Assembly: GCA_026625185.1 (NCBI GenBank)
Contig: CP113000.1
Location: forward strand, 3,132,651 to 3,164,650
Length of the DNA stretch: 32,000 nt
Reading direction: 5' to 3'
Source of the DNA: Thermodesulfobacteriota bacterium
Lineage (GTDB): Bacteria > Desulfobacterota > WTBG01 > JAGOGO01
The position numbers and the translations under genes were made by a program. The notes below the pieces were generated by a model, which was given only the letters and a program-made list of their open reading frames with translations, ran no database searches and was not told where the DNA came from. Numbering within the stretch: the first letter of the stretch is position 1; each line of letters opens with the position of its first letter. Below are positions 2,995 through 24,752 of the stretch, in pieces.

Positions 2995-4224
2995 TTAGTG
3001 ATTTTCCAGTTCAAAGATGTGATCTAATACTTGAACCCTTACTTTTTCTCCAGCCTTAATTTCCTTCTTATCCTCAGTTACCACCATTAATCCATTGGCC
3101 TGAATCATGGATTTAAGAATACCTGATCCTTGATCACCAGTGGTGGTAGCGCAGAGGACTCCCTCTCGAAAGCCTAAACGAACCCTGATAAAAAAACGGA
3201 GGTCCTTTTTTGTTTTCACATCATCAACCAAAACTGCTTCAATCTGAGATCGGAACAGATGCGTGTGCCCCATTTTTTTAAGCAGCGCGGGCCGAACAAA
3301 CTGTTCAAAACAAACCATGCAAGAAACCGGGTTGCCGGGCAGTCCAAAAATTAGTTTATCAGCAACAAGACCAAACGCTGTGGGTTTTCCGGGTCTCATC
3401 GCTACGTTCCAGAATTTTAATTCGCCACCTATATCCTCCAAAACATCTTTGACAAAATCATATTCTCCGACGGAAACGCCGCCGGTGGTAAGCATAACAT
3501 CAGCAGAAAGCCCCTGGGTGATTTTTGCCAAAATCTCCCTTTTATCATCCCTTGCAATCCCCAACATGAGGGGCACAGCTCCGCATTCTTTAACCTGGGC
3601 AGCGAGAGAATAGGTATTGCTGTTTATAATTTTCGACGAGTCTCCCTCTTCATCTATATCGATTAACTCATCTCCAGTAGAGAGAATCGCTACCGTGGGT
3701 ACCTGATAGACCGCAATAAAACTTTTCGAAAAAGAAGCAAGCATACCAATATGAGGGGGCCGGATAACTGTTCTCGCCTGAATAACCTTTTCCCCTCGCA
3801 TGACATTCTCGCCCGCGAGTCTGATATTTTCTCCTTTGTTCGGAGGTGCCAAAATGTAAACGTTATCTCCTGAAAACGAGGTGTCTTCCTTTCTCACTAC
3901 CGAATCTGCTCCTGGGGGGATCGGAGCGCCGGTCATAATATGGGTAGCTTGCATAGGTCCTACTTGGTTTTTGGGTAAAAACCCGGCCGGGAGCTCCTCA
4001 ATGACTTTTAATGTGGTTGGTTTATCAAAAGAAGCATTTTTTATATCATCAAACCGGACCGCATACCCATCCATCGCTGAGTTGTTCCATGGAGGGATGT
4101 TAAATGGGGCAATAATCTCTTCCCCGATCACTCTTCCGAGTGACGTGAGCAGATCAACCTTCTCAAGACTCATGACGTGAGTATGGCTCAAAACAATACG
4201 TTGGGCTTCATCAACGCTAATCAT
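2995..4224 (-). CDS. moeA: molybdopterin molybdenumtransferase MoeA
   Basis: MoeA-type sequence (NSAMDGYAV, TGGVSVGEYD, LPGNPVS). The ORF track extends to a TTG at 4257. I prefer the ATG at 4224 (MISVDEAQRIV...), which resembles typical MoeA N-termini. The start remains uncertain. Confidence 0.9.
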   Translation of the reverse strand: MISVDEAQRIVLSHTHVMSLEKVDLLTSLGRVIGEEIIAPFNIPPWNNSAMDGYAVRFDDIKNASFDKPTTLKVIEELPAGFLPKNQVGPMQATHIMTGAPIPPGADSVVRKEDTSFSGDNVYILAPPNKGENIRLAGENVMRGEKVIQARTVIRPPHIGMLASFSKSFIAVYQVPTVAILSTGDELIDIDEEGDSSKIINSNTYSLAAQVKECGAVPLMLGIARDDKREILAKITQGLSADVMLTTGGVSVGEYDFVKDVLEDIGGELKFWNVAMRPGKPTAFGLVADKLIFGLPGNPVSCMVCFEQFVRPALLKKMGHTHLFRSQIEAVLVDDVKTKKDLRFFIRVRLGFREGVLCATTTGDQGSGILKSMIQANGLMVVTEDKKEIKAGEKVRVQVLDHIFELENH

Positions 4225-4276
4225 GGCTACACCAGAATTCCTCATTACGAGTGACAAAAAAATATTTGCGGAATTT

Positions 4277-5220: not shown

Positions 5221-6822
5221 TTAGATGCTTACGCTCTTAACCTTTTTGACTAAAACAAAATAATCAAACACCACCCGGGTTACGAATATAGCCGTGAAGA
5301 AACTCGCCATAATTCCAACGCACAAAGTCACGGCAAACCCTTTCACCGGACCCGTGCCAAACTGAAAAAGAATGGCAGCGGCAAGCACGGTGGTAAGGTT
5401 GGAATCGAAAATCGCGGAAAAAGCTTTCGCGTAACCTGCGTCTACCGAAGCCCAGATGGTTTTCCCGGCGCGCAGCTCCTCCCGGATACGTTCAAAGATA
5501 AGGACATTAGCGTCCACCGCCATACCGAGGGTGAGCACAATTCCCGCGATACCAGGAAGAGTGAGAGCAGCCTCAAAACCTGCTAATACCGCAAAAATAA
5601 TAACCATGTTGAGGACAAGAGCAAGATCAGCAATCAAGCCGGATAATTTGTAATAAAAAACCATAAATAATAATACGAGGAGGCTTCCGATAACGGTAGC
5701 GCGAATCCCTTGATCAATAGAATCCTTACCGAGTGAGGGCCCCACGGTTCGTTCTTCTAAAATTTTGATTGGCGCTGGCAGAGATCCTGCTCGTAAAACG
5801 ATCGCCAGGTCTTTGGCCTCCTCTAAGGTAAAGCTTCCCTCAATCTGCGCCCGGCCTCCTCCAATCGGTTCCCGAATGACCGGAGCTGATTTAACAACAT
5901 TATCGAGAACAATGGCGAGCCTTTTCCCCACATTATTTGTGGTTACCGTTTTAAAAATCTTTGCCCCTTTAGCATTAAACTTAATTGAAACATAGGGTCG
6001 ATTATACTGGGCGCTATCAATTTGGGGTTGGGCGTCAACCAGCATATCTCCGGTCAAAAGTGTTCTTTTCTTTACCAGTAGAGGTGTCCGGGCGGTCACT
6101 ATTCCGGTTTCTTTATCCACTGTTTCTTCATAAAGAATTTCATTTTCCGGAGGAACTCTTCCTTCGAGCGCTTTCTGCACACTGTCTTCATCATTTACCA
6201 GCTTGAACTCTAACATCGCCGTCTGTTTGAGTAACCTTTTTGCTCGTTCCGGATCACTGAGGCCGGGCAATTGAATGAGAATCCGGTCCTCCCCCTGGCG
6301 CTGAATATTTGGTTCGGTCACCCCAAACTGGTCAATCCGATTCCGGATAGTCTCGAGAGCTTGTTTTACTGCCGAGTCCTTGACCGAGCGGATTTCATTT
6401 TTATCCAACCCGAAAAGCGGCCGATAAAAGTTCTCGCCGGTTTCAGGTTTCAGGCTGGAGAGCGCGGGGAAGTTTTTTTTCATGACCTCGGCAAATTTTT
6501 CATTGTTAGATTGATCCAGTAATTCGACGGCAATGGTTTGACCCTTACGGAGGGTAATCTCAATAAAAGGTATCTTTTCTTCATCGAGCACCTCTTCCAG
6601 CGTCTGGACATACTGACTGAGAGTATTTTCAATCGCTTTATCCGTTTGAACTTCTGTAATGAGGTGCATTCCTCCTTGGAGGTCTAATCCAAGATGAATT
6701 TTATCTACATTATCCTTCCACCATGGAGGGAGATTATCGGTAATCGAAGGAATTAAATAAAAAATGCCGGCCACAATAGAAAGTATAACTAAAACAGCTC
6801 GCCACGTTAAATTCCTCACCAT
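5221..6822 (-). CDS. secD: protein translocase subunit SecD
   Basis: 533 aa with LGLDLQGGMHL and MAVDANVLIFERIREE motifs, in the classical yajC-secD-secF order. Confidence 0.95.
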   Translation of the reverse strand: MVRNLTWRAVLVILSIVAGIFYLIPSITDNLPPWWKDNVDKIHLGLDLQGGMHLITEVQTDKAIENTLSQYVQTLEEVLDEEKIPFIEITLRKGQTIAVELLDQSNNEKFAEVMKKNFPALSSLKPETGENFYRPLFGLDKNEIRSVKDSAVKQALETIRNRIDQFGVTEPNIQRQGEDRILIQLPGLSDPERAKRLLKQTAMLEFKLVNDEDSVQKALEGRVPPENEILYEETVDKETGIVTARTPLLVKKRTLLTGDMLVDAQPQIDSAQYNRPYVSIKFNAKGAKIFKTVTTNNVGKRLAIVLDNVVKSAPVIREPIGGGRAQIEGSFTLEEAKDLAIVLRAGSLPAPIKILEERTVGPSLGKDSIDQGIRATVIGSLLVLLFMVFYYKLSGLIADLALVLNMVIIFAVLAGFEAALTLPGIAGIVLTLGMAVDANVLIFERIREELRAGKTIWASVDAGYAKAFSAIFDSNLTTVLAAAILFQFGTGPVKGFAVTLCVGIMASFFTAIFVTRVVFDYFVLVKKVKSVSI

Positions 6823-8505: not shown

Positions 8506-9552
8506 TCAAAGTATCAACATCGCATCCCCATAACTATAAAATCGATACTTTTTTGTAATCGCCTCATGATAAGCTCTAAAAATCATTTCCGTGCCCGCAA
8601 AAGCCGAAACCAGCATCAACAAGGTAGACCGAGGCAGATGGAAATTGGTAATCATTCCCTTAACCGCCCGGAACTCATACCCCGGATAAATAAAAAGGTC
8701 AGTAAAGCCGCATAAGGTGTTTTTTTTGCTTATCCAGGTTTCGAGGGCTCGCGCTGACGTGGTACCACACGCGATAATCCTTTGTCCATGTTCAATACCA
8801 CTCGTAATCTTTTTCGCAGTCTCAGGGCTTATTTTATAATATTCGCTATGCATCCGATGGACTTCAACCTTATCTACCCGGACGGGTTGAAAAGTACCTA
8901 CCCCCACATGAAGCGTGAGAGAGACGACCTCAATCCCCTTTTTTTTTATCCGGTTTATAACCCGGTTGGTAAAATGCAGGCCGGCTGTCGGAGCAGCGGC
9001 AGAGCCACGATTCCGGGCAAAAATTGTTTGATAACGAGCGCGGTCAAAAGGTTCCTGGTTGTCATGTTCTCTTTTAATATAAGGAGGAAGCGGTGTTTTT
9101 CCGATCCGTTCTAAAACTTCCTCAAGATCACCGGCGTAGATTAACTCAATATCCCAAAGCCCTTCTTTTTTTTGCTTAACCACCCGGGCGTTAAGCTCTG
9201 GCCCAAAGAAAAGGGTTGATCCGATCTGCGGATTTTTTGAACAATCGATTAGCGCTTCCCAAATATTTTTTTCTTTAGGGTATTCCAAGGCATTTAGGGG
9301 CTGGAGAAGCAAAACCTCCACCTTCCCTCCTGTCTCCTTATGGCCAATAATCCTTGCCGGCCTTACCTTGGTGTCGTTTACAACGACAATATCTCCAGAA
9401 TTTAAGTAATTATCAACTTCCGCAAAAATAGCGTGTTCAATTTTCTCTTCTTCACGAAAAACAACCATGAGCCGGGATGCATCCCTCTCTGGAGCGGGAG
9501 CCTGAGCTACAAATTCTGGAGGCAAGTGATAATCAAATTCATTAACCAGCAT
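8506..9552 (-). CDS. queA: S-adenosylmethionine:tRNA ribosyltransferase-isomerase
   Basis: N-terminus FDYHLPPEFVAQAPAPERDASRLMVV and the PTAGLHFT motif. The gene sits upstream of tgt, as in the E. coli queA-tgt-yajC-secDF cluster. Confidence 0.95.
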   Translation of the reverse strand: MLVNEFDYHLPPEFVAQAPAPERDASRLMVVFREEEKIEHAIFAEVDNYLNSGDIVVVNDTKVRPARIIGHKETGGKVEVLLLQPLNALEYPKEKNIWEALIDCSKNPQIGSTLFFGPELNARVVKQKKEGLWDIELIYAGDLEEVLERIGKTPLPPYIKREHDNQEPFDRARYQTIFARNRGSAAAPTAGLHFTNRVINRIKKKGIEVVSLTLHVGVGTFQPVRVDKVEVHRMHSEYYKISPETAKKITSGIEHGQRIIACGTTSARALETWISKKNTLCGFTDLFIYPGYEFRAVKGMITNFHLPRSTLLMLVSAFAGTEMIFRAYHEAITKKYRFYSYGDAMLIL

Positions 9553-9565
9553 AAGAATATTTAAA

Positions 9566-9703
9566 GTAAACCGCGTTAGAAGGGTTTCACACGGGGCATT
9601 TACCAGGTGTGAAAAGTGTAAAAATTTTTAAATTTATCCCGTGCTTCTTCACACTTTAGATAGTTGATACCAAAAAGGCCTTTCTAACGGGGTAAAAGTT
9701 TTT
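9566..9703 (+). repeat. intergenic repeat family 1, full-length copy A (core 9571-9692, terminal inverted repeats)
   Basis: The left end CCGCGTTAGAAGGG (9571-9584) is the inverted complement of the right end CCTTTCTAACGGGG (9679-9692). The internal blocks TTTCACAC, CATTTACC, GTGTAAAAAT, ATTTATCCCGTG, TTCACAC and TAGTTGATACC align with copy B (11546-11670) and partly with copy C (15594-15656). Confidence 0.85.
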
Positions 9704-9851
9704 AATTCTTAACAAATTAAGGTATTAATTTCAAGGAGAAAAAACAGGGAAAGACAAAAAATAAGATCAAATACTTAAAAACTTCGTTCTGAGCCTATAT
9801 TGTTGGGGGGTTATTTCAAGAAATAATGAACGAAACGCGAAATGATGAGGC

Positions 9852-10349
9852 CTATTTCTTAGGTTTTGTGGTTCCTTCCCAGATAAATCTCCCGCTTTTT
9901 CCTCCAGATTTTTCCTTCAGGTGGATATCGGAAATAGTCATACCCCGGTCAACTGCTTTGCACATATCATAAATCGTGAGCGCAGCTACTGCAACCGCGG
10001 TAAAAGCCTCCATTTCCGCTCCGGTTTTTCCCTTGATTTTAACCGTGGCTCTAATATCAATCCGGCTTTTTCCCCTCACCGGGGAAAAGTCAACCTGAAC
10101 ACTGGTTATTGCAAGAGGATGACACAGAGGGATTATGTCAGGAGTCCTTTTCGCCCCCATAATTCCAGCAATCCGGGCCGCTCCTAACACATCTCCTTTG
10201 CTGATCTTTTTATCTATTATAAGGCGGAAAGTTTCGGGTTTCATAAATATAGAGCCACATGCAGTTGCTTCCCGCAAGGTCTCATCCTTTTTACTCACAT
10301 CCACCATTATTGCCTTCCCGTGATCATCAAAATGGGTTAATTTCTTCAT
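9852..10349 (-). CDS. moaC: cyclic pyranopterin monophosphate synthase MoaC
   Basis: 165 aa of MoaC-type sequence ([42 protein letters not shown]). SD GGAGGG upstream. Directly downstream of moaA. Confidence 0.95.
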
Positions 10350-10436: not shown

Positions 10437-11423
10437 TTATCCTCCGATCAGACTCATTGTCCGCTGGCACTTCTTGAAATGCGCTTCATGAATCTGATGT
10501 TGCTTGGGTTTTTTCTCGAGAGCATGGAGAAGTTTTTCGCGTAATTTTTCGTCATCGCAGCCGTTCCTTAAGAAAGGTTTAAGGTCTATCTCATCATCAT
10601 GAAAAAGACAGGTGCGCAAGTGTCCGTCTGCGGTTAAACGAATCCGGTTGCACAGGTGGCAAAAATGGCTGCTTATAGGATTTATGAAACCAATTTCTCC
10701 GAGGGAGTTTTTTAATTGATACCGAACTGCCGGGCCATCATTTTTTTCATCAGGCAAGGGAATTAATGTTCCCAGCTCTTGAATTTGTTCCTTAATGTGA
10801 GAGTTAGGATACACCAGCTCATGGTTCCATCGGCTCTCCCCAGCCGGCATATATTCAATAAATCTGACGACCAACGGAAAGTCGAGGGTAAGGCGGGCAA
10901 AATCGAAAACTTCCTTTTCATTTGTCCCGTTAATGATAACCACATTCAGTTTTACCGGAGATAATCCCACTGTTATGCATTCCTGTATCCCTGCCCAAAC
11001 ATCATGAAACTTATTTCTCCGGGTAATGCGAAAAAAGGTTTCCGGGTCGACCGCGTCCAAGCTGATATTGATCCTCTTTAAACCAGCAACTTTTAAAGGA
11101 CGGGCAAAATCCTTAAGCAAAACCCCGTTGGTGGTCATACTCAGATCTCTAATACCGGGTATTGCGGAAAGCTCGGTGATAAAATTAACAATACCTTTTC
11201 TCACCAATGGTTCTCCTCCGGTGATTCGAACCTTGTTAATTCCTTCTTGAGCATAGACCCTTACCAAACGAAGAATTTCTTCATATCGTAGAATATCCTC
11301 ATGATCAATAAGCGGTATTCCCTCTTCCGGCATACAGTATTGACATCGGAGGTTGCACCGGTCAGTAACCGAAATTCTTAAATAATTAATGGTGCGTTGA
11401 TATCGGTCTTTAAGAATTTTCAT
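10437..11423 (-). CDS. moaA: GTP 3',8-cyclase MoaA (radical SAM)
   Basis: INYLRISVTDRCNLRCQYCMP radical-SAM cluster motif and a C-terminal CxxCxR...C cluster (CHLCNRIRLTADGHLRTC). The track start at 11429 is a TTG. The ATG at 11423 (MKILKDRY...) is more likely. Confidence 0.95.
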   Translation of the reverse strand: MKILKDRYQRTINYLRISVTDRCNLRCQYCMPEEGIPLIDHEDILRYEEILRLVRVYAQEGINKVRITGGEPLVRKGIVNFITELSAIPGIRDLSMTTNGVLLKDFARPLKVAGLKRINISLDAVDPETFFRITRRNKFHDVWAGIQECITVGLSPVKLNVVIINGTNEKEVFDFARLTLDFPLVVRFIEYMPAGESRWNHELVYPNSHIKEQIQELGTLIPLPDEKNDGPAVRYQLKNSLGEIGFINPISSHFCHLCNRIRLTADGHLRTCLFHDDEIDLKPFLRNGCDDEKLREKLLHALEKKPKQHQIHEAHFKKCQRTMSLIGG

Positions 11424-11433
11424 AAGCAAAAAT

Positions 11434-11465
11434 AAAAAAAGCCGCCTTCCTTGCTAGGAACCGGC
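11434..11465 (-). terminator. hairpin plus U-tract between the riboswitch aptamer and the moaA start (candidate attenuator)
   Basis: The minus strand reads GCCGGTTCC-TAGCAA-GGAAGGCGGC followed by TTTTTTTATTTTT. The stem is GCCG/CGGC plus TTCC/GGAA with a small internal loop. Confidence 0.5.
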
Positions 11466-11477
11466 TCATTAACTTTT

Positions 11478-11700
11478 CTCCTTTCCAAGCACGGGAGGCA
11501 ACGCCGTTTCCAGCGATACCCTAACGGCCTTTTACCCTGAGTAAACCCGGTTAGAAGCTTTCACACTGGACATTTATCCCGTGGGCAGCAGTGTAAAAAT
11601 TATTTTATTTTTCCCTGCGCTTTTTCACACTGTTAGCTAGTTGATATCCAACAAGACATTTCTAACGGGGAAAAAACTTTTAGGCACAAAGGCTCGGAGG
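11478..11700 (-). promoter_or_regulatory. molybdenum-cofactor (Moco) riboswitch candidate, interrupted by repeat copy B
   Basis: The minus strand reads ACCUCCGAGCC...[insert]...GGCCGUUAGGGUAUCGCUGGAAACGGCGUUGCCUCCCGUGCUUGGAAAGGAG. The blocks CCUCCGAGCC, CUGGAAACGG, GCCUCCC and GGAAAGGAG match my recollection of the conserved core of the Moco RNA motif. The position immediately 5' of moaA-moaC is the canonical one. Not verified with a covariance model. Confidence 0.65.
11546..11670 (+). repeat. intergenic repeat family 1, full-length copy B, nested in the moaA leader
   Basis: The ends CCCGGTTAGAAGC (11546-11558) and TTTCTAACGGGG (11659-11670) are inverted complements. The internal blocks are collinear with copy A. 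Confidence 0.85.
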
Positions 11701-11948
11701 TATAATAATAATAATGTATCTTTTTCATAATCAAAGTCAAGAAAATAAAACTTTAGGAAAAATCCCGCCTTCCGGAAAAATTATTTACTTTCAGGTACAT
11801 TCAAATTAATGATGCTTTTTATACCAAGTTGCATTTAAAAATAGATCGAGTCAGGGACGAGGAATCGACGCAGGCGCACATTTAAGTACGTCGAGGAGTA
11901 TGACGAGGGGACAACAAAGATATACAAATGAAGGCGACTTGGTATTAA

Positions 11949-15588: not shown

Positions 15589-15656
15589 TTAAACCCCGTT
15601 AGAAGGATTTCACACGGAACATTTACCCCGTGCTTCTTTGTCCTGTTAGGAGATGG
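15589..15656 (+). repeat. intergenic repeat family 1, short copy C
   Basis: AAACCCCGTTAGAAGGATTTCACACGGAACATTTACCCCGTGCTTCTTT matches the left end of copies A and B. It then jumps to their second ATTTATCCCGTGCTTCTT block, as if ~40 nt between internal direct repeats had been deleted. The right end is divergent. Confidence 0.7.
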
Positions 15657-15738
15657 AAAAATAACTTTCCTTTTAAATCTGGAAGAGCTACTCTAAGGTA
15701 AAAGAACACTTAAAGAAAAATTCCAAAAACCTTGTCCT

Positions 15739-23537: not shown

Positions 23538-23769
23538 GAGTTCAAAAAGCTCATTAAGCTATTTATGGAAGAGTAAATCTTAATCTCAACATTGAACAAT
23601 TCGGGGATAGGCTTACAACCGAACAACGGTCTTCATGAACCGTCTTCCCCGGCTTTAATACCAGGCCGTGACAAGAGACGGAGAATGCAGAAGATTGTTA
23701 AGCTTCCTGAAAAACCAAAAAAAACAACATGGCCGGTAAACGTGATTTTTCTATTAATAAATAAAAAAA

Positions 23770-23841
23770 CTGGGGTGGGAGGATTCGAACCTCCGATTGC
23801 GGGATCCAAAATCCCGTGACTTACCGCTTGTCGACACCCCA
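23770..23841 (-). tRNA. tRNA-Gln (anticodon UUG)
   Basis: The minus strand reads TGGGGTG TC GAC AAGCGGTAA GTC A CGGGA TTTTGGA TCCCG CAATC GGAGG TTCGAAT CCTCC CACCCCA G. This is a full cloverleaf, collinear with E. coli tRNA-Gln (U1-A72 pair, discriminator G). The anticodon loop UU-UUG-GA gives UUG. CCA is not encoded. Confidence 0.93.
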
Positions 23842-23885
23842 AAAATAATCCGGGATTATATACCACAATTTTTATTAGAATAAAA

Positions 23886-24752
23886 CTACAAAAGCGCCTT
23901 GGCAACGGAAATTTTCCAGTTTAGTTCGTGATAATGTTTGACTAATTTACTTTCCGCACTTCTTGCTTCCGCCTCATCAAAAAACAGCCCAAAAACCGTT
24001 GGCCCACTTCCTGACATCAAAGCACCCCAGGCCCCAAGATTTTCAAGGGCTTTTTTTATCTTGGCAATCTCAGGAAAATGAGGGATGACAACACGCTCAA
24101 AGTCATTATAAAGAATTTCTTTTCCCAATTTCAGCAGATCAATCTTCGTTGAGAACTTAAAAAGCTCATCCTGTGGTTGCAACCTAAAGTGATGATAAGC
24201 CCAGGCAGTAGAAACAAGGATTGGCGGGGTTACTAATAAAGCCCAAAAAGGGGGGGATAGTTCAATCGGGAAAAGTTTTTCCCCAATCCCGGTCGCAAGA
24301 GCCGGCCCGTTAGAAAAAAAGAAAGGAACATCCGCTCCAATTCTCACCCCAAGCTCCATGAGGTGGCGCGTGGAACACTTAAGGTCATAAAGCTCATTAA
24401 TCCCTTTCATGGTTGCCGCCGCGTCACTGCTCCCGCCCCCCAAACCCGAAGCAACCGGAATACGTTTTTTGAGACTGATCGTCACTCCTCCCGCTACCCT
24501 AGCTTCGCTAATAATCAGGGAAGCTGCTTTAAAGGCTAAGTTTTTGTTATCTAGAGGAAGGTCGCTGCTGCTGGAGGTTAAGGTTATCCCTGACGGTGTT
24601 CTTGATAAGGATAGGGTATCATAAAGCCCAACCGCACCCATGATACTCCGGATCTCATGAAAACCATCTTTTCGCTTACCAATGATTTCGAGACGCACGT
24701 TAATTTTTGCCGGCGCCACAAGATTGTTGGAATCAACATTAGTCATACTCAA
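23886..24752 (-). CDS. ispE: 4-diphosphocytidyl-2-C-methyl-D-erythritol kinase
   Basis: APAKINVRLEIIGKRKDGFHEI and the GHMP-kinase motif PVASGLGGGSSDAAA. Confidence 0.93.
   Translation of the reverse strand: MSMTNVDSNNLVAPAKINVRLEIIGKRKDGFHEIRSIMGAVGLYDTLSLSRTPSGITLTSSSSDLPLDNKNLAFKAASLIISEARVAGGVTISLKKRIPVASGLGGGSSDAAATMKGINELYDLKCSTRHLMELGVRIGADVPFFFSNGPALATGIGEKLFPIELSPPFWALLVTPPILVSTAWAYHHFRLQPQDELFKFSTKIDLLKLGKEILYNDFERVVIPHFPEIAKIKKALENLGAWGALMSGSGPTVFGLFFDEAEARSAESKLVKHYHELNWKISVAKALL

What the first reader, a model, noticed from the sequence alone, without database searches (positions are those of the whole stretch)
11478..11700. Putative Moco riboswitch upstream of moaA-moaC carries a nested copy of the repeat element inside one of its helices
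Read on the minus strand, the moaA leader has the blocks I remember as the conserved Moco RNA motif core. These are CCUCCGAGCC at 11700-11691, and CUGGAAACGG, GCCUCCC and GGAAAGGAG at 11512-11478. Between them sits the complete 125-nt family-1 element (11670-11546). GCCUUU (11693-11688) can pair with AAAGGC (11532-11527), so the element lies in the distal part of a helix. Because its own termini are self-complementary, it could simply extend that helix and leave the aptamer foldable. A dispersed palindromic element sitting inside a riboswitch aptamer is unusual. It raises the question of whether the switch still works or has been disabled or rewired.
Basis: partly seen in the sequence, partly recalled or inferred. 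Interest (0 to 1): 0.7.

Follow-up and report, generated by a model that had tools for sequence, protein, structure and literature searches.

The report
Mobile repeat nested inside a Moco riboswitch
A 125-base mobile DNA repeat has landed in the tip of one outer hairpin of the RNA switch controlling molybdenum/tungsten-cofactor synthesis genes, and the switch's core is intact by sequence and predicted fold; close relatives carry the same switch without the insert or with a different version of it.

Summary
On the minus strand, 11711-11462 is a full-length match to Rfam RF01055, the Moco/Tuco riboswitch aptamer (64 bits against a gathering score of 36, E 2e-13). It has no P3 stem. A terminator hairpin with a U7 tract follows, then moaA and moaC.

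The covariance model puts a 132-nt insertion in the apical loop of P2, three base pairs beyond the tetraloop receptor. The insert (11670-11546) looks like a MITE. It has 11-nt terminal inverted repeats (CCCCGTTAGAA/TTCTAACSGGG) and a 4-bp target duplication (TTTT/TTTA). Two further copies lie in the window.

Related metagenomic genomes (moaA 91-94% nucleotide identity) have the identical aptamer with an empty site (AAAAGTT-TTTA-CTCAGGG), scoring 77-84 bits. Two other lineages carry structurally different variants of the element at the same TTTA. This points to recurrent insertion or gene conversion.

The probabilities of the native helices in predicted folds do not change with the insert. Aptamers in filled lineages differ at 1.7-3.3% of positions, against 7-13% at moaA third codon positions. 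The switch is therefore probably still functional, but this is untested.

The same termini with a TNNA duplication occur in genomes of many phyla. No transposase partner was found. I found no published case of a MITE inside a riboswitch aptamer helix.

The parts
11713..11740 (-). Promoter-like site: -35 TTGACT (11740-11735), 16-nt spacer, -10 TACATT (11718-11713)
   Evidence: Consensus scan, (9 of 12 matches; the number of such sites in the region is not above shuffles). The TTGACTTTGA box is conserved in all close relatives. Consensus match only, not shown to function.
11462..11711 (-). Moco/Tuco riboswitch aptamer (RF01055), P3-lacking form, including the nested element
   Evidence: cmscan 64.0 bits, gathering score 36, E 2.3e-13, model 1-135 of 135. 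The MFE fold reproduces P1, P2, P4 and P5.
11676..11693 (-). P2 5' strand: GCCUUU (11693-11688), tetraloop-receptor half CCUAAA (11684-11679), apical stem AGU (11678-11676)
   Evidence: CM alignment and fold. Receptor position in a P2 bulge as described in PMC2408646.
11671..11674 (-). Left target-site duplication (TTTT, one change from TTTA)
   Evidence: Comparison with the empty site AAAAGTT-TTTA-CTCAGGG in L004.
11546..11670 (-). Nested 125-nt MITE-like element, long form. TIRs are CCCCGUUAGAA (11670-11660) and UUCUAACCGGG (11556-11546), 10 of 11 complementary. It has an internal hairpin CAGUGUGAAAAA...UUUUUACACUG and a subterminal hairpin CACGGGAUAAAUGUCCAGUG.
   Evidence: Absent from L004, L125, L130, L140 and L143-145.
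11542..11545 (-). Right target-site duplication (TTTA)
11527..11542 (-). P2 3' strand: ACU, receptor half CAGGG, then AAAGGC (11532-11527)
11496..11521 (-). P4 hairpin with GAAA tetraloop (11510-11507)
11478..11495 (-). P5 with the conserved core CCUCCC...GGAAAGGAG; the P1 3' strand GGAG is at 11481-11478
11434..11467 (-). Intrinsic terminator (expression platform): GAGCCGGUUCCUAGCAAGGAAGGCGGC followed by U7 (11440-11434)
   Evidence: Hairpin -13.8 kcal/mol. Conserved in all close relatives. L123 carries a differently spelled stem (GCCGUUUU/GAAAACGGC) at the same place. The simple scanner missed it because of the internal loop.
10437..11423 (-). moaA (GTP 3',8-cyclase), 328 aa
   Evidence: TIGR02666 389 bits, cut-off 284.
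9852..10349 (-). moaC (cyclic pyranopterin monophosphate synthase)
   Evidence: NF006870 235 bits, TIGR00581 213 bits.
9567..9696 (-). Second long-form copy of the element (9692-9571) with a perfect TTTA/TTTA duplication, between moaC and queA
   Evidence: The site is empty in L002 and L004.
15594..15665 (-). Third, degenerate copy (left end decayed or rearranged)
   Evidence: nhmmer E 6e-14. Orthologous copies occur at the same site in L136, L143 (internally deleted) and L145 (with a nested mini-element).

Best explanation
The moaA-moaC operon of this uncultured Thermodesulfobacteriota genome is preceded by a genuine riboswitch of the Moco RNA motif family, P3-lacking subclass. It is most likely an OFF switch. 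When the cofactor is bound, P1 and the GGAAAGGAG core are locked into the aptamer, the downstream hairpin with its U7 tract forms, and transcription stops before moaA. Without ligand, UGCUUGGAAAGG can pair with CCGGUUCCUAGCA (the terminator's 5' arm and loop) and let the polymerase read through.

A non-autonomous transposon (MITE-like; 11-nt inverted termini; 4-bp duplication of a TTTA target) inserted into the U-rich apical loop of P2, three base pairs beyond the tetraloop receptor. Its ends are self-complementary, so in the RNA it forms an autonomous hairpin that prolongs P2. It leaves every conserved junction, the P4 tetraloop/P2 receptor pair and the expression platform untouched. The switch is therefore probably still working.

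Shown: family membership, position of the insert, its mobile nature, the empty and filled alleles, and the predicted fold. Inferred: the OFF logic, the antiterminator, and retained function.
For: - RF01055 hit at 64 bits with the insert in the P2 loop. Natural empty alleles that are identical in sequence score 77-84 bits, so the loss of about 20 bits is the insertion penalty alone.
- Mobile nature: TIR and TSD, with empty sites for two window copies. The same termini occur in more than 118 loci, with a 4-bp flanking repeat identical in 70 of 111 copies, against 0-1 in shifted controls.
- Fold: the MFE of the 250-nt RNA keeps P1, P2, P4 and P5. Mean pair probabilities are the same in filled and empty alleles (P1 0.96 in both, P2 0.98 in both, P4 0.88 in both, P5 0.89 in both).
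- Constraint: aptamers of filled alleles differ at 2-4 of 121 positions, against 6.7-13% at moaA third codon positions. Empty alleles differ at 3-6 of 121, against 4-9%. By inspection of the sequences, the window-vs-L131 changes lie in linkers or keep pairs (G-U to A-U, U-G to U-A).
- The inserts are not brand new. TSDs and TIRs have decayed: TTTT/TTTA and CCGGG in the window, CTTA in L131, TCTTG in L136. The three C-to-U changes in L136's left TIR keep the G-U wobble pairs of the RNA helix.
- moaA and moaC are intact.
- Terminator: -13.8 kcal/mol followed by U7.
- P2 apical length varies naturally in the family (L133, L124).
Against: - There are no expression or ligand-binding data of any kind.
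- MFE folds of growing transcripts show that, between about 100 and 178 nt, the A/U-rich 5' part of P2 pairs with the A/U-rich interior of the long-form element (9-17 non-native pairs). The native P2 becomes the MFE only at about 186 nt. This is a possible kinetic trap for a transcriptional switch.
- One filled lineage (L136/L142) has lost a G in the conserved AGGG junction and has two terminator changes. This could be early decay.
- The sequence-conservation argument is weak statistically: few substitutions, and the age of each insertion is uncertain.
- The receptor half-site here (UCAGG) departs from the canonical UAUGG, though it does so in empty alleles too.
Confidence: 0.7

Rival explanations
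1. The insertion has killed the riboswitch. The aptamer looks intact only because the insertion is recent, and moaA-moaC is now expressed constitutively or permanently attenuated.
For: Predicted transient misfolding between the 5' strand of P2 and the element interior during transcription. A G deletion in the conserved junction and terminator changes in the filled L136/L142 lineage. A 20-bit lower CM score.
Against: Three host lineages carry an insert, and in each the TIRs or TSDs have already mutated while the 121-nt aptamer is as conserved as in empty alleles. The thermodynamic fold is unchanged. The insert lies in a loop whose length varies naturally.
Confidence: 0.15
2. The switch has been rewired. 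The element brings a new input, such as an internal promoter giving a leader that lacks the 5' half of the aptamer and therefore cannot sense ligand, or a binding site for a protein or sRNA.
For: A promoter-like match lies inside the element and points toward moaA: GTGAAA-18 nt-AATAAT, 11628-11599. All element copies seen in this clade sit in the same orientation as the riboswitch strand.
Against: The promoter-like match is weak (9 of 12), and the number of such matches in the region is at shuffle level (8 against 6.2 +/- 2.6). It lies in the long-form-specific segment, which the L131 and L136 inserts lack, so it cannot explain those.
Confidence: 0.08
3. The extra sequence is a lineage-specific expansion of P2 rather than a mobile element, and the short alleles arose by deletion.
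For: The MITE transposase is unknown. If excision is precise, some empty alleles could in principle be excisions.
Against: The same element occurs elsewhere in the window with its own TSD and empty sites, and in hundreds of unrelated loci with 4-bp duplications. The outgroup L141 is empty and lacks the TTTA target. Empty alleles retain exactly one TTTA.
Confidence: 0.02

Closest known systems
Moco RNA motif / molybdenum-tungsten cofactor riboswitch (Rfam RF01055; Regulski et al. 2008, PMC2408646), P3-lacking subclass
   Same: Full-length CM match. P1, P2, P4 and P5 are present, with a GAAA tetraloop on P4, a receptor-like bulge in P2, and the conserved CCGAGCC / AGGG / GCCUCCC / GGAAAGGAG core. 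It lies upstream of molybdopterin-synthesis genes (moaA-moaC) and has an intrinsic terminator as platform, one of the two platform types described in the paper.
   Different: It carries a 125-nt transposon in the P2 apical loop. The receptor 3' half is UCAGG rather than UAUGG. The ligand (Moco or Tuco) is unknown; the paper links P3-less forms to tungsten-cofactor users, which I could not check for this genome.
Bacterial MITEs (Correia, RUP, Nezha, Chunjie; reviewed in PMC3184786 and PMC10969869)
   Same: Short, non-coding, with terminal inverted repeats, a target-site duplication, multiple copies, filled and empty sites between relatives, and stable hairpins when transcribed.
   Different: Termini are CCCCGTTAGAA with a 4-bp TNNA duplication. 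The nearest deltaproteobacterial example, Chunjie, is 178-235 bp with 21-bp TIRs and 9-bp repeats. The distribution here spans many phyla, and no autonomous partner was found.
BOX element between the two T-box riboswitches of the Streptococcus pneumoniae trp leader (Croucher et al. 2011, PMC3049150)
   Same: A dispersed repeat is co-transcribed within a riboswitch leader, and regulation appears to survive.
   Different: The BOX element sits between two complete aptamers. It is not inside a helix of one aptamer.
piggyBac / IS1380-type transposons (recalled from memory, not tested)
   Same: A 4-bp duplication of a T..A tetranucleotide, and termini beginning CCC.
   Different: The target here is TNNA rather than TTAA. 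No transposase was identified, so any relationship is only a lead.

Membership tests
RF01055 Moco/Tuco riboswitch aptamer | Covariance-model score at or above the curated gathering score | tested here: met
   64.0 bits against 36, E 2.3e-13, model 1-135. Relatives score 50-88 bits.
RF01055 Moco/Tuco riboswitch aptamer | Helices P1, P2, P4 and P5 (P3 optional) | tested here: met
   CM alignment. Independent MFE and pair probabilities of 0.86-0.98. P3 positions are deleted, which makes this the P3-lacking class of PMC2408646.
RF01055 Moco/Tuco riboswitch aptamer | GNRA tetraloop on P4 and tetraloop receptor in a P2 bulge | tested here: inconclusive
   The GAAA loop is present (11510-11507). The 5' half of the receptor, CCUAAA, is present, but the 3' half is UCAGG instead of UAUGG. 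Docking is not testable here.
RF01055 Moco/Tuco riboswitch aptamer | Location upstream of Moco/Tuco biosynthesis, transport or user genes, with an expression platform | tested here: met
   moaA and moaC lie directly downstream. A terminator hairpin with U7 sits between the aptamer and the ATG.
RF01055 Moco/Tuco riboswitch aptamer | Cofactor-dependent gene control | not testable with these tools
   Needs a reporter, transcription or probing experiment.
MITE (non-autonomous TIR transposon) | Terminal inverted repeats | tested here: met
   CCCCGTTAGAA / TTCTAACSGGG: 10 of 11 pairs in the riboswitch copy and 11 of 11 in L131 and most other copies.
MITE (non-autonomous TIR transposon) | Target-site duplication and empty sites in relatives | tested here: met
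   TTTA duplication, with empty sites for two window copies. The 4-bp repeat is identical in 70 of 111 copies, against 0-1 in shifted controls.
MITE (non-autonomous TIR transposon) | Small, non-coding, multi-copy | tested here: met
   90-127 nt. Three copies in 32 kb.
MITE (non-autonomous TIR transposon) | A full-length insertion sequence with the same termini that encodes the transposase | tested here: inconclusive
   TIR pairs 0.5-5 kb apart enclose no transposase. No ORF family recurs next to the copies except housekeeping genes. The window has no transposase among the ORFs checked. Only about 8 kb per locus could be examined.

The most novel reading that the evidence does not exclude
The P2 tip of this riboswitch is not just a tolerated landing site but a recurrently used, possibly selected one. 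Three sister lineages carry three structurally different variants of the element at the same TTTA, in the same orientation. Each variant is closest to a non-orthologous copy. The element may have been co-opted as a peripheral module: a strong helix clamping the otherwise 3-bp apical stem next to the tetraloop receptor, or a delay or binding module. That would be a mobile element domesticated as part of a riboswitch aptamer.
Probability: 0.12. Interest if true: 0.7.

Novelty: new variant of a known kind. Interest (0 to 1): 0.5.

Why it matters
Riboswitch aptamers are usually treated as compact, tightly constrained units. Here nature provides matched alleles of one switch: empty, and filled with elements of 90, 99 and 125 nt. 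These alleles allow a direct test of how much foreign structured RNA a peripheral helix tolerates, and whether co-transcriptional folding survives it.

There is a practical point too. Annotation pipelines that cap hit length or penalise insertions could miss such interrupted riboswitches.

As a by-product, the element belongs to an apparently undescribed family of small transposons with CCCCGTTAGAA ends and TNNA duplications. The family is spread across Patescibacteria, Omnitrophota, Planctomycetota, Desulfobacterota, Nitrospirae and others, and its transposase is unknown.

Tried and rejected
- Rfam scan of a free-standing copy of the element (9540-9730) at E up to 10: only noise hits between 10 and 17 bits. 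The element is not a known RNA family.
- Search for the autonomous transposon. TIR pairs 0.5-5 kb apart are just neighbouring small copies; for example, the ORF between the L096 pair is a Peptidase_M23. Clustering 844 ORFs from 118 loci gave only ABC ATPases, EF-G, proteases and the like.
- The same TIR pattern in IMG/VR: 0 hits. A canonical copy against PLSDB plasmids: no match.
- Literature: the TIR strings match only unrelated primers and aptamers. No paper describing a MITE inside an aptamer was found. Chunjie is a different element.
- A single ancestral insertion with neutral drift is rejected as the simple reading. Riboswitch-resident copies are 73-80% identical with 10-46 gap columns, although the host moaA genes differ by only 7-13% at third positions. 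An orthologous copy at another site is 93% identical between lineages.
- The CCCCGTTAGAA-like match at 24305 lies inside an ORF and has no partner, so it is chance.
- Other Moco riboswitches in the 118 cross-phylum loci: none by core-motif regex.
- Look-ups of the window's 328-aa MoaA and of P0124 found no record.

Full report
**What is in the sequence.** Read on the minus strand, the interval between rlmD (13262-11949) and moaA (11423-10437) holds, in order:
- a promoter-like TTGACT...TACATT;
- a hairpin followed by U7.

Rfam's cmscan at gathering thresholds finds only two things in the 32-kb window. One is tRNA-Gln at 23769-23842. The other is RF01055, the molybdenum/tungsten cofactor riboswitch aptamer, at 11711-11462 on the minus strand. 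It scores 64.0 bits against a gathering score of 36 (E 2.3e-13) and covers model positions 1-135. The alignment deletes P3 and places 132 unaligned nucleotides in the hairpin loop of P2. The downstream genes are moaA (TIGR02666, 389 bits) and moaC. queA and tgt follow.

**The insert is a small transposon.** The 125 nt at 11670-11546 begin with CCCCGUUAGAA and end with UUCUAACCGGG, giving 10 of 11 complementary positions. A second copy lies between moaC and queA (9692-9571). A decayed third copy lies at about 15665-15594.

I fetched relatives through MoaA homologues and through a metagenome scan with the aptamer core. The window's MoaA is 93% identical to that of L004. L004's leader is identical to the window's leader minus the element and one copy of TTTA, apart from one nucleotide. 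It reads ...CCUAAAAGUU-UUUA-CUCAGGG... and scores 84.4 bits.

The junctions in the filled alleles are:

| Allele | Left flank | Right flank |
|---|---|---|
| window | TTTT | TTTA |
| L131/L002 | TTTA | CTTA |
| L136/L142 | TTTA | TTTA |

The moaC-queA copy has a perfect TTTA/TTTA duplication, and its site is empty in L002 and L004. The element therefore has inverted termini, a 4-bp target duplication, several copies and empty sites, which is the standard evidence for a MITE.

**Where it sits in the RNA.** P2 runs as follows:
- GCCUUU (11693-11688) pairs with AAAGGC (11532-11527);
- then comes the bulge that holds the receptor for the GAAA tetraloop of P4, an architecture described by Regulski et al. 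2008;
- then a 3-bp apical stem (AGU/ACU), capped in empty alleles by a U-rich loop.

The target TTTA is that loop. The insert therefore lies three base pairs beyond the receptor, in the hairpin cap and not in a junction. The length of this position varies naturally: L133 and L124 carry unrelated P2 extensions of about 20 and 33 nt.

ViennaRNA's MFE for the 250-nt RNA keeps P1, P2, P4 and P5 and folds the element as a branched hairpin on top of P2. Mean pair probabilities of the native helices are the same in the empty allele and the three filled alleles, except for small drops in P2 and P5 in L136. P1 is 0.94-0.96, the base of P2 0.91-0.98, P4 0.88 and P5 0.73-0.89.

**Expression platform.** GAGCCGGUUCCUAGCAAGGAAGGCGGC folds at -13.8 kcal/mol and is followed by U7, 11 nt before the ATG. 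It is conserved in the clade. The more distant L123 has a differently spelled stem at the same place. UGCUUGGAAAGG, which is part of P5 and the core, can pair with CCGGUUCCUAGCA, the terminator's 5' arm and loop. This gives the usual OFF-switch logic. That logic is inferred, not shown. None of these switching sequences touches the insert.

**Is the switch still under constraint?** Among filled alleles the 121 aptamer positions differ at 2-4 sites (1.7-3.3%), while moaA third codon positions differ by 6.7-13%. Among empty alleles the figures are 3-6 sites and 4-9%. By inspection of the sequences, the window-vs-L131 changes lie in linkers or keep base pairs.

The inserts themselves have aged. 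TSDs and TIRs carry substitutions. In L136 three C-to-U changes in the left TIR keep G-U pairs in the RNA.

There are points against retained function:
- L136/L142 has lost one G of the conserved AGGG junction and has two terminator changes.
- MFE folds of growing transcripts show the A/U-rich 5' half of P2 pairing with the A/U-rich interior of the long-form element. This lasts from about 100 nt to about 178 nt, and native P2 becomes the MFE only at about 186 nt. It is a possible kinetic hazard.

I put retained function at about 0.7.

**One insertion or several?** On moaA trees, the window and L131 are sisters, L136 is unresolved, and the empty alleles group together. The outgroup L141 is empty and lacks the TTTA.

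The three riboswitch-resident copies are structurally different:
- The window has a long form with about 36 extra nt in the subterminal hairpin loop. It shares this with its own moaC-queA copy (81% identity, 5 gap columns).
- L131 has a 9-nt GCTCYGCTTGCC segment. It shares this with a non-orthologous copy in L136 (84% identity, 0 gap columns).
- L136 has neither feature.

The window and L131 copies are only 73% identical, with 46 gap columns, although their hosts differ by 6.7% at third positions. For comparison, a truly orthologous copy at the 15.6-kb site is 93% identical between L136 and L145. The simplest reading is recurrent insertion into the same TTTA, or replacement by gene conversion from other copies. 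I cannot separate these two. Precise excision in some empty lineages also cannot be excluded.

**The element family.** They come from MAGs of Patescibacteria, Omnitrophota, Planctomycetota, Deltaproteobacteria/Syntrophia, Nitrospirae, Elusimicrobia and others.

Across 111 copies the four bases on each side are identical in 70 cases, against 0-1 in shifted controls. T is at the first position in 97 copies and A at the fourth in 100, so the target is TNNA.

Interiors are heterogeneous. Minimal forms of 32-52 nt exist, and L058 has a tRNA-like sequence, recognised by eye, between the termini. A deltaproteobacterial subfamily shares a subterminal hairpin with some compensatory changes and a TTTA|...|TTTACT flank. 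The window's copies are a divergent branch of it.

I found no transposase partner, no copy in IMG/VR, no plasmid match, no Rfam family and no paper containing the terminal sequence. The resemblance to piggyBac/IS1380 (CCC ends, 4-bp T..A duplication) is from memory only and is untested.

**Comparison with what is known.** The riboswitch is a member of RF01055. Its P3-less form upstream of molybdopterin-synthesis genes matches the class that Regulski et al. associated with tungsten-cofactor users. I could not check tungsten genes in this genome.

In the library searched, I found no report of a MITE inside a riboswitch aptamer helix. The nearest case is the BOX element between two T-box riboswitches in the pneumococcal trp leader, where regulation appeared to survive.

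**Verdict.** This is a known riboswitch class in an unusual state, interrupted by a transposon in a peripheral loop, with natural empty and variant-filled alleles. It is a new variant of a known kind and of moderate interest. The open question is function, which needs experiments.

Noticed in passing
L005-L122 (e.g. L109:6124-6231, L116:95-193, L058:5057-5166): The termini CCCCGTTAGAA/TTCTAACGGGG with a 4-bp TNNA duplication occur in MAGs of many phyla (CPR/Patescibacteria, Omnitrophota, Planctomycetota, Desulfobacterota, Nitrospirae and others). Interiors are unrelated, minimal forms are 32-52 nt, and one copy encloses a tRNA-like sequence (recognised by eye). No transposase partner was found, there is no hit in IMG/VR or PLSDB, and no literature match.
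   Followed up: partly
window 9567-9696 (-): A second long-form copy lies between moaC and queA with a perfect TTTA duplication. The site is empty in L002 and L004. Its target (AAAAACTTTTACT) closely resembles the riboswitch target (AAAAGTTTTTACT).
   Followed up: yes
window 15594-15665 (-); L136:7265-7363; L143:~6053-6079; L145:1929-2056: An older insertion is shared by riboswitch-filled and riboswitch-empty lineages. It is decayed or rearranged on its left side in the window, internally deleted in L143, and carries a nested mini-element in its hairpin loop in L145.
   Followed up: partly
window 11575-11610 and 9600-9635 (-): The long form differs from the short form by about 30-36 nt inserted in the loop of the subterminal hairpin and flanked by TAAAT on both sides. 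This looks like a nested insertion or duplication.
   Followed up: no
L002:2898-3136: L002 has about 150 extra nt between moaA and moaC that are not related to the element family.
   Followed up: no
L136:11542-11755 and L142:233-446: In this filled lineage the conserved UUAGGGUAUC junction has lost one G, and the terminator has two substitutions. The changes appear in two independent metagenome assemblies.
   Followed up: partly
window 11701-11711 (-): The window's leader has one extra AUU unit in the UUAUUAUUAU run at the 5' end of P1, compared with all relatives.
   Followed up: no
window 2995-4257 (-): moeA (molybdopterin molybdenum/tungsten transferase) lies 7 kb away, next to secDF. The gathering-threshold Rfam scan of the window found no second riboswitch.
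   Followed up: partly
window 11599-11628 (-): A promoter-like GTGAAA-18 nt-AATAAT lies inside the long-form-specific part of the element and points toward moaA. It is a weak match at chance level.
   Followed up: no
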